A stretch of 64,000 bases of DNA, from assembly GCF_009914755.1 (NCBI RefSeq), contig NC_060925.1, one strand, 5' to 3'. Below are positions 15,347-17,252 of this stretch, one piece after another. A model generated the notes under the pieces. The model was given only the letters and a program-made list of their open reading frames with translations. It was not told the origin of the DNA and did not search any database. Made by a program: the position numbers and the translations under genes. Within the stretch, counting starts at the first letter, position 1. Each line of letters opens with the position of its first letter. The DNA is from the human T2T-CHM13v2.0 reference genome, Homo sapiens.

Positions 15347-17252
15347 CAGTAGTCTCCAACCTTTTTGGCACCAGGGACCAGTTTCTTTTTTTTGTTTGTT
15401 TGTTTGTTTTGTAATAGTTTTATAGGTTCATTTATTTATTACATTTAAATCTTTGCTTGTGTGAAATCTCTTTCAATGAAACTTGTGAGATAGGGATTTG
15501 AATTTATTTTTTCCAGTGGGCTACCCTATACTACAATACAATTCTGGATAACCTACCATTGCCCCTTTTTATTTTTTAGAGTCAGGATCTCACTCCATCA
15601 CCCAGGCTGGAGTGCAGTGGTGCGATCATAGTGCACTACACCCTCAAGCTCCTGGGCTCAAGTAATTCTCCTACCTCAGCCTCCCAAGTATTAACAGGTA
15701 GGACTGCAGGCATGTGCCATCATGCCTAGCTAATTTTTTAAATTTTTGTAGAGACGGGTTTCAAACTCCTGACCTCAAGCAATTTTCCCACCTTTGCCTC
15801 AAAGTGTTGGGATGACAGGCGCGAACTATGACACCCTCCCTTCTCCATTGATTTGAAATGCCACTTTATGTATTTGGGTCATTTCTGGATGCTCTATGCT
15901 GTCTTATTCAAATGGATTAGTTATCCTAGCTTTATATTTTATTGGCTTGTTTAGCTATTTCTTTTCTTTTTTTTTTTTTATTGATCATTCTTGGGTGTTT
16001 CTCACAGAGGGGGATTTGGCAGGGTCATAGGACAATAGTGGAGGGAAGGTCAGCAGATAAACAAGTGAACAAAGATCTCTGGTTTTCCTAGGCAGAGGAC
16101 CCTGCGGCCTTCCACAGTGTTTGTGTCCCTGGGTACTTGAGATTAGGGAGTGATGATGACTCTTAACGAGCATGCTGCCTTCAAGCATCTATTTAACAAA
16201 GCACATCTTGCACCGCCCTTAATCCATTTAACCCTGAGTGGACACCGCACATGCCCCAGAGAGCACAGGGCTGGGGGCAAGGTCACAGATCAACAGCATC
16301 CCAAGGCAGAAGAACCTCTCCCAGTACAGAACAAAATGAAGTCTCCCATGTCTACTTCTTTCTACACAGACACAGTAACAATCTGATTTCTCTATCTTTT
16401 CCCCACCTTTCCCCCTTTTCTATTCCACAAAACCGCCATCGTCATCATGGCCCGTTCTCAATGAGCTGTTGGGTACACCTCCCAGACGGGGTGGTGGCCG
16501 GGCAGAGGGGCTCCTCACTTCCCAGAAGGGGCGGCCGGGCAGAGGCGCCCCCCACCTCCCTCTCGGACGGGGCGGCTGGCCGGGTGGGGGCTGACCCCCA
16601 CCTCCCTCCCGGACGGGGCGGCTGGCCGGGTGGGGGCTGAACCCCCACCTCCCTCCCGGAAGGGGCGGCTGGCCGGGCGGGGGCTGAACCCCCACCTGCC
16701 TCCCGGACGGGGCGGCTGGCCAGGCGGGGGCTGACCCGCCACCTCCCTACCAGGGACCAGTTTCATGGAAGACAGTTTTTCCATGGATCAAGGATGGGGG
16801 ATGGTTTCAGGATGATTCAAGTACATTACATATATTGTGCGCTTTATTTATATTATTATTAAGCTGTATTATATAATGAAATAATTATATAGCTCATCAT
16901 AGTGTAGAATCGGTGGGAGCTCTGAGCTTGTTTTCTTGCAACTAGGCGGTCCTATCTGGGGGTAATAGGAGACAGTGACAGATCATCAGGCATTAGATTC
17001 TCATAAGGAGCGTGCAACCTAGATCCCTCGCGTGCGCAGTTCACAGTAGGGTTCGTGCTCCTATGAGAATCTAATGCTGCCACCAATCTGACAGGAGGTG
17101 GAGCTCAGGTGGTAATGCAAGTGATGGGGGGTGGCTGTAAATACAGATGAAGCTTCGCTTGCTCACCCGCTGATCACCTCTGGTGGTGTGGCCTACTTCC
17201 TAACAGGCCGCAGACTGGTACCGGTCTGTGGCCTGGGGTTTGGGGACCCCAC
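15347..17252 (-). mobile_element. MER1A (hAT) element, split by the SVA insertion
   Basis: Pieces 15347-15385 and 16765-17252 sum to ~527 bp; internal palindromic CATTAGATTCTCATA..TATGAGAATCTAATG; 8-bp TSD CTGTATAC/CTATATAC. Confidence 0.88.
15386..16748 (-). mobile_element. 5'-truncated SVA (SINE-R + partial VNTR, ~15961-16748) with ~575-bp 3' transduction (15386-15960)
   Basis: SINE-R and VNTR sequence; 16-bp TSD ACCAGGGACCAGTTTC at 15370-15385 and 16749-16764; two T-tails (15386-15410 and ~15961-15983); AATAAA at 15431-15440. Confidence 0.93.

What the first reader, a model, noticed from the sequence alone, without database searches (positions are those of the whole stretch)
16254..16322. 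Candidate fossilised ADAR (A-to-I) hyper-editing inside an SVA, i.e. RNA editing written into the genome
Seen in sequence: against the other two SVAs in this window (22435-22520, 61457-61545), this SINE-R has 10 T>C changes on the + strand in 69 bp (16254, 16255, 16256, 16271, 16278, 16315, 16316, 16318, 16321, 16322). These are A>G on the SVA sense strand, converting 10 of the 16 adenosines in the interval, and I saw no such cluster elsewhere in the element. Nine of the 10 changed A's have a 5' U or A neighbour, while 4 of the 6 unchanged A's have a 5' G. Established: ADAR prefers 5' U>A>C>G, inosine is copied as G by reverse transcriptase, and the parental HERV-K LTR5 sequence, as I recall it, has A at these sites. 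Inference: the SVA RNA (or its source element's RNA) was hyper-edited and then retrotransposed. The transduced sense AluJ and the antisense Alu-like domain of the full-length source could have formed an ADAR-recruiting duplex.
Basis: partly seen in the sequence, partly recalled or inferred. Interest (0 to 1): 0.9.

Follow-up and report, generated by a model that had tools for sequence, protein, structure and literature searches.

The report
RNA editing fossilised in SVA retrotransposons
A dense patch of A-to-G changes in this human jumping element is shared by ten copies across the genome and recurs in unrelated copies, and it likely records RNA editing by ADAR enzymes that was copied back into germline DNA and inherited.

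Summary
The cluster is real. Against unedited copies of the same SVA subfamily it is 11 sense-strand A>G here and 12 in the founder (12 of 17 adenosines in 69 nt); they are the group's only shared changes in 446 nt of SINE-R. LTR5 copies carry A at the ten reported sites. It is not private: 10 dispersed copies share it, two of which transduce intact SLC35G/AMAC-like genes. So editing hit a founder RNA, not this copy, and the transduced AluJ (source C20:13.878 Mb, now empty) is irrelevant. The pattern recurs: of 1884 copies, 27 and 23 have both bases changed at two sense AA sites, all to GG; two opposite-strand controls give 0. In 47 unselected copies A>G outnumbers U>C 70:24, with ADAR's neighbour order (5' U>A>C>G, 3' G); LTR5 shows no bias. 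Best reading: ADAR editing of SVA RNA fixed by L1 reverse transcription (0.83). The duplex partner was not found. I found no report of this, but could not read two key papers.

The parts
15370..15385 (.). target-site duplication, 3' copy (16 bp)
   Evidence: identical to 16749-16764
15386..15408 (-). poly(A) tail of the insertion (T-rich on +)
   Evidence: sequence
15409..15964 (-).
   Evidence: 548 of 556 identical; the source site has no SVA in this assembly
15965..15980 (-). poly(A) of the lost source SVA
   Evidence: sequence; junction
15981..16475 (-). SINE-R domain of an older SVA (SVA_B-like; label recalled); boundary with the VNTR approximate
   Evidence: alignment with in-window and genomic SVAs
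16254..16322 (-). A>G cluster: 11 sites here (16254-56, 16271, 16278, 16286, 16315, 16316, 16318, 16321, 16322), 12 in the founder (adds 16317)
16246..16445 (-). stretch of SINE-R where sense A>G is over-represented across SVA copies (limits chosen after seeing the data)
16476..16748 (-). 5'-truncated VNTR; no Alu-like domain or hexamer in this copy
16749..16764 (.). target-site duplication, 5' copy, inside an older DNA-transposon-like repeat (MER1 type, recalled)

Best explanation
The 69-nt A>G patch, shared by ten dispersed SVA copies, is likely a fossil of ADAR A-to-I hyper-editing of an ancestral SVA RNA that L1 reverse transcription would have copied into germline DNA as G. Steps: (1) shown: the changes are derived, on the element's sense strand, all A>G, dense and in ADAR's context; (2) inferred: a transcript of an older (SVA_B-like) element paired over its 5' SINE-R, most likely with an antisense SVA-containing RNA or an inverted SVA copy, since no fold-back partner exists inside the element; (3) inferred: ADAR deaminated 12 of 17 adenosines and L1 ORF2p read inosine as G; (4) shown: the edited sequence stayed mobile and sits at 10 unrelated sites, one via a now-lost C20 source (this window) and two with SLC35G/AMAC-like transductions; (5) shown as a pattern, inferred as ADAR: the same stretch picked up A>G clusters repeatedly in other SVA subfamily backgrounds.
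For: Only shared changes of the 10-copy group over 446 nt are 12 A>G; 11 of 12 have 5' U/A, 0 of 5 unchanged do (Fisher p=0.001). LTR5 copies have sense A at the ten reported sites in 15-20 of 20 each. Genome-wide, of 1884 pattern matches, double changes at two sense AA sites number 27 and 23, all AA>GG, in both genomic orientations (15/12 and 13/10); two opposite-strand AA controls give 0 and 0. 47 unselected copies: A>G 70 over 113 sites vs U>C 24 over 115 (p=7e-7; distinct sites 42 of 113 vs 19 of 115, p=5e-4); clumped by copy (variance/mean 2.07, p=3e-5); rates by 5' neighbour U 1.8, A 1.5, C 0.5, G 0.26, highest with 3' G. G depleted upstream and enriched downstream is the motif given in PMC4365171 (passages); the order U>A>C>G is recalled. 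LTR5 control: A>G 8 over 32 sites vs U>C 10 over 44; SVA 22 over 31 vs 8 over 43. With T columns masked, the GG state needs at least 6 changes on well-supported branches.
Against: No duplex partner found: no long inverted match in 11 loci, SINE-R fold z=+0.74, longest predicted helix 8 bp in 2 full-length copies. An antisense SVA partner does not by itself explain why the 3' SINE-R (22 vs 14, p=0.12) and the Alu-like domain (A>G 10 over 51, U>C 21 over 91) are spared. The unedited direct parent was not found: the third AMAC-type copy (C18) is unedited but has older-subfamily diagnostics, which shows sequence exchange among SVAs and could inflate the count of independent events. G>A is also mildly clumped (p=0.016). 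5' W preference is shared with polymerase-eta-type errors (recalled). ADAR1 editing of L1 RNA was not detected in cell culture (PMC5224506, passages). No RNA data and no ape genomes were available.
Confidence: 0.83

Rival explanations
1. The clusters are copying errors made during insertion (L1 ORF2p mis-incorporation opposite A, or a polymerase-eta-type second-strand synthesis), with no deaminase involved.
For: Would also follow the element's strand and clump by copy; A-runs and 5' U/A context fit. No duplex partner was found.
Against: 50 of 50 double changes (34 different copies) are AA>GG with no AT/AC types; 12 of 17 adenosines changed in 69 nt; 3' G preference; confined to part of the SINE-R, with no excess in the Alu-like domain or in transduced flanks copied in the same reactions.
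Confidence: 0.09
2. The clusters arose in genomic DNA after insertion (local mutagenesis of an A-rich tract, or deamination of DNA in an antisense R-loop) and were then spread by retrotransposition and gene conversion.
For: Exchange among SVAs is evident at the AMAC-type copies; identical motifs such as CCTCTCCC appear in different backgrounds.
Against: LTR5 copies with the same tract show no A>G bias; the edited patterns differ among lineages and carry private A>G further along; conversion moves a cluster but does not create it.
Confidence: 0.05
3. One reading: this copy's own transcript was edited, with the transduced AluJ pairing with the Alu-like domain.
For: A sense Alu fragment is in the transduction.
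Against: Nine other copies share the cluster without this flank; no A>G excess in the Alu fragment or Alu-like domain.
Confidence: 0.01
4. G is ancestral and other SVAs were changed G>A (APOBEC3 type), or the cluster is chance or an assembly error.
For: APOBEC-type G>A editing of retroelements is documented (PMC2873906, PMC4866542; passages). At 16286 many LTR5 copies do carry G on the sense strand.
Against: LTR5 and nearly all SVA copies carry A at the ten reported sites; 10 loci share the cluster; chance about 1e-7 or lower.
Confidence: 0.01

Closest known systems
ADAR A-to-I hyper-editing of repeat RNA (Porath et al. 2014, PMC4365171; passages read)
   Same: Clusters of A>G on the transcribed strand, G depleted upstream and enriched downstream.
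   Different: Known at RNA level, mostly in inverted Alus; here it is in genomic DNA, inherited by daughter insertions, in the SINE-R rather than an Alu, and the duplex partner is unknown.
APOBEC3 DNA editing of retroelements (Zaranek 2010 PMC2873906 and Knisbacher & Levanon 2016 PMC4866542, passages read; Carmi 2011, seen only as a reference entry)
   Same: Many same-type changes written into one retroelement copy in one replication cycle, then fixed in the germline.
   Different: Opposite change (A>G, not G>A), RNA rather than cDNA substrate. PMC4866542's pipeline selects for G-to-A and against A-to-G dominance, so it would discard these.
A-to-G hypermutated retroviral proviruses (Kim et al. 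1996, seen only as a reference entry; avian LTR cases recalled)
   Same: A>G clusters passed through reverse transcription into integrated DNA; attributed to dsRNA deaminase (recalled).
   Different: Those are exogenous retroviruses or vectors in somatic cells; here a non-LTR, L1-mobilised element in the hominid germline that kept multiplying.
SVA 3' transduction and the AMAC/SLC35G retrogenes (Xing et al. 2006; not held, content recalled)
   Same: Three intronless copies behind an SVA and an intron-containing source with no SVA; lost source elements are described in PMC12593883 (passages).
   Different: Two of the three SVAs carry the A>G cluster and the third is unedited and of an older type; I could not check whether that paper noted this.

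Membership tests
ADAR A-to-I hyper-editing | Clustered changes of one type, A>G, on the transcribed strand | tested here: met
   12 of 12 shared changes; 50 of 50 double changes; controls 0
ADAR A-to-I hyper-editing | G depleted 5' of the site, G enriched 3' | tested here: met
   5' G 1 of 12 edited vs 4 of 5 unchanged (p=0.01); unselected copies p=2e-5 for 5' G depletion, 3' G rate 1.62 vs 0.75-0.86 (3' not tested for significance)
ADAR A-to-I hyper-editing | A is the ancestral base | tested here: met
   15-20 of 20 LTR5 copies and 8 of 8 same-subfamily SVAs; site 16286 mixed in LTR5
ADAR A-to-I hyper-editing | Long double-stranded RNA substrate | tested here: inconclusive
   no fold-back partner inside the element; a partner in trans or at the lost founder locus cannot be seen
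ADAR A-to-I hyper-editing | Inosine in RNA, dependent on ADAR | not testable with these tools
   no RNA data or assay
APOBEC3 DNA editing of retroelements | G>A on the sense strand relative to the ancestor | tested here: not met
   direction is A>G
L1-mobilised SVA with 3' transduction | TSD, poly(A), SINE-R and VNTR, flank traceable to a source locus | tested here: met
   16-bp TSD, two poly(A) tracts, 548 of 556 match to C20
Named SVA subfamily consensus (Dfam SVA_A-F) | Cluster is the majority state of a named subfamily | tested here: inconclusive
   Dfam was not available; the GG state is in 27 of 1884 matches and the full cluster in 10 copies, so it is not a major-subfamily state

The most novel reading that the evidence does not exclude
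ADAR is a recurring germline mutator of SVA retrotransposons: it edits the 5' SINE-R of SVA RNA, the edits are reverse-transcribed and inherited, they supply much of the A>G variation among copies and most subfamily-marking changes in that stretch (8 of 12 against LTR5), and one hyper-edited lineage went on to carry two intact protein-coding retrogenes.
Probability: 0.6. Interest if true: 0.87.

Novelty: new variant of a known kind. Interest (0 to 1): 0.78.

Why it matters
RNA editing is normally erased with the RNA. A 2016 review says a role for ADAR editing in Alu subfamily evolution 'has not yet been determined' (PMC4982230, passage), and ADAR1 editing of L1 RNA was not detected in culture (PMC5224506). 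This is direct genomic evidence that an L1-mobilised element can carry ADAR-type edits into the germline and remain mobile. It gives exact sites to test in RNA-seq and reporter assays, a dated record of germline or embryonic double-stranded SVA RNA, and a warning for SVA phylogenies: recurrent A>G sites are homoplasies and one event can add a dozen 'diagnostic' changes.

Tried and rejected
Source as unedited parent: the C20 source is empty. C18 AMAC-type copy as unedited parent: rejected as a clean control because its 5' SINE-R has about 8 older-subfamily differences; the tree of the transduced genes is star-like (3 sites join C17q+C8, 2 join C18+C8). Fold-back duplex: none; the 25 longest inverted repeats in 13000-24500 are all outside the SINE-R. 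AluJ mechanism: rejected. A TSD search for other group members failed because my script misplaced the 5' ends; independence of the sites rests on unrelated 3' flanks. The tree with T columns masked cannot test the 10-copy group's unity, as its only shared characters are masked. Papers: 10 searches found no report of A>G clusters in SVA DNA; term searches in PMC5640379, PMC6139936, PMC10681720 and PMC12593883 gave no mention of ADAR. Carmi 2011, Xing 2006, Hancks & Kazazian 2010 and Kim 1996 were not held; Knisbacher & Levanon 2015 (Ann NY Acad Sci, recalled) was not looked up. No supplements were read; Carmi 2011 and its supplements may bear on novelty.

Full report
Anatomy. The element is a 5'-truncated SVA on the minus strand, 15386-16748, between 16-bp target-site duplications at 15370-15385 and 16749-16764. 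From its 3' end it holds a poly(A), a 556-nt transduced flank, a second poly(A), a full SINE-R and about 270 nt of VNTR. The flank has one close match, G000:C20:13877881-13878436 (548 of 556), and no SVA follows it there: the immediate source element is absent from this assembly. Subfamily names (SVA_A, SVA_B, LTR5, MER1, AluJ, AMAC/SLC35G) are recalled labels, not tool results.

Observation. All ten T>C changes are present against the two other SVAs of the window. A genome search with 16200-16400 returned 40 scored matches, of which 30 were fetched; ten copies (L022-L031, on C1 three times, C6, C8, C10, C12, C14, C17, C24) share the cluster. Their 3' flanks are unrelated except for one pair, so they are separate insertions and not an assembly error. 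Against 8 unedited copies of the same subfamily, the only columns that mark the group in 16000-16445 are 12 sense A>G within 69 nt; the window copy has 11 and has gone back to A at 16317. The Alu-like domain has no group-specific change (8 edited vs 6 unedited full-length copies). Eleven of 12 edited adenosines have a 5' U or A, none of the 5 unchanged do (p=0.001).

Direction. A gapped pattern found 275 LTR5-type copies that keep the segment deleted in SVA. I fetched 20, chosen by hand from the first 100 and favouring types closest to SVA. At the ten reported sites 15-20 of 20 carry sense A; site 16286 is mixed, with G in 14 of 20. The G state is therefore derived.

It recurs. A 32-nt pattern matches 1884 SVA and LTR5 copies. 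Both bases of the sense AA at 16321-22 are changed in 27, all to GG; at 16315-16 in 23, all to GG; 34 different copies in all. The same test at two AA sites of the other strand gives 0 and 0. At 16254-56, 10 copies matched, 9 CC and 1 CG, nearly all from the focal group. On a 93-row tree with all T columns masked, GG at 16321-22 needs at least 6 changes on well-supported branches and falls in old and young subfamily backgrounds; the bootstrap had not settled. For an unselected sample I took rows 2-52 and dropped the two focal copies and two presumed segmental duplicates, leaving 47. Rare sense A>G number 70 over 113 sites, U>C 24 over 115 (p=7e-7; by distinct site 42 vs 19, p=5e-4). The excess lies in 16246-16445 (48 vs 10) and is not significant in 16000-16245 (22 vs 14); these limits were chosen after seeing the data. 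In that stretch rates by 5' neighbour are U 1.8, A 1.5, C 0.5 (only 4 sites), G 0.26, and a 3' G doubles the rate. A>G is clumped by copy (p=3e-5); G>A less so (p=0.016). Nineteen LTR5 fragments (one dropped as misaligned) show no bias, 8 over 32 vs 10 over 44 sites, so the tract is not simply mutable as DNA. Of 12 common SVA alleles that differ from LTR5 in 16246-16385, 8 are A>G and 1 is U>C. Shared descent inflates occurrence counts; the distinct-site test is the safer one.

Mechanism. One change type, tied to the element's strand in both genomic orientations, dense, clumped, with G avoided upstream and favoured downstream, is the signature described for ADAR hyper-editing (PMC4365171, passages). 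I infer that SVA RNA is edited in its 5' SINE-R and that L1 reverse transcription reads inosine as G. The weak step is the duplex. There is no long inverted match in 11 loci, the SINE-R folds no better than shuffles (z=+0.74), and predicted helices are at most 8 bp. Editing extends past the LTR start into the env-derived part (16409-16442; boundary recalled), so a partner must be an antisense SVA or provirus-derived RNA rather than a solo LTR; this is inference and does not explain why the 3' SINE-R is spared. Copying errors during insertion are the main rival (0.09).

History. Group members differ from their majority by 1.4% on average and the window flank from its source by 8 of 556, which at a recalled primate rate means several to about ten million years. 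L025 (C17:36.14 Mb) and L027 (C8:8.41 Mb) transduce the same 1.24-kb flank with intact 338-aa EamA-family ORFs. A third intronless copy lies on C18 and the intron-containing source on C17:7.385 Mb has no SVA; this matches the AMAC/SLC35G family as I recall it. The C18 SVA is unedited but of an older type in its 5' SINE-R, so it is not a clean parent; it shows that SVAs exchange sequence, which may overstate the number of independent editing events. The transduced genes have no A>G excess.

Known and new. APOBEC-type G>A editing of retroelements and A>G hypermutation of retroviruses are known; the APOBEC screen I read selects against A-to-G dominance (PMC4866542). Four SVA sequence papers do not mention ADAR (term searches), a review calls ADAR's role in Alu subfamily evolution undetermined, and ten literature searches found no report. 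Carmi 2011 and Xing 2006 were not held, so novelty is probable, not shown.

Verdict. Observation confirmed; interpretation partly supported, with the event moved to a founder and widened to a recurring, family-wide process. ADAR origin 0.83; new variant of a known kind; interest 0.78.

Noticed in passing
L161 (G000:C18:11770000-11771800) vs L025, L027: Three copies share the same transduction junction but the C18 SVA is of an older type in its 5' SINE-R: gene conversion or template switching between SVAs at one source lineage.
   Followed up: partly
L002/L021 (G000:C20:13878436) and L162 (G000:C17:7385400): Both source sites lack an SVA in this assembly: lost or unfixed source elements.
   Followed up: partly
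L103 (G000:C11:49974909-49975359): A SINE-R or LTR piece with GG at 16321-22 and further A>G, joined directly to unrelated (L1-like, recalled) sequence at the window-equivalent of about 16145.
   Followed up: no
window 22137-24252: The 22k SVA ends in a GC-rich non-Alu 5' segment (about 24160-24252) in place of the Alu-like domain and hexamer, like an SVA_F1/MAST2-type element (recalled).
   Followed up: no
window 16004-16376: The window copy's private changes are mostly C>T and G>A on the sense strand (7 of 8), several outside CpG, including the return to A at 16317.
   Followed up: no
L126, L158: Copies with A>G concentrated in the 3' SINE-R (16118-16255), outside the main stretch.
   Followed up: no
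window 16831-17211: The predicted lncRNA LOC105378615 lies in the DNA-transposon-like flank just upstream of the truncated SVA on the same strand.
   Followed up: no
L075, L076 (G000:C15:18.11 and 19.44 Mb): Near-identical edited SVA and flanks: a segmental duplicate, counted once.
   Followed up: yes
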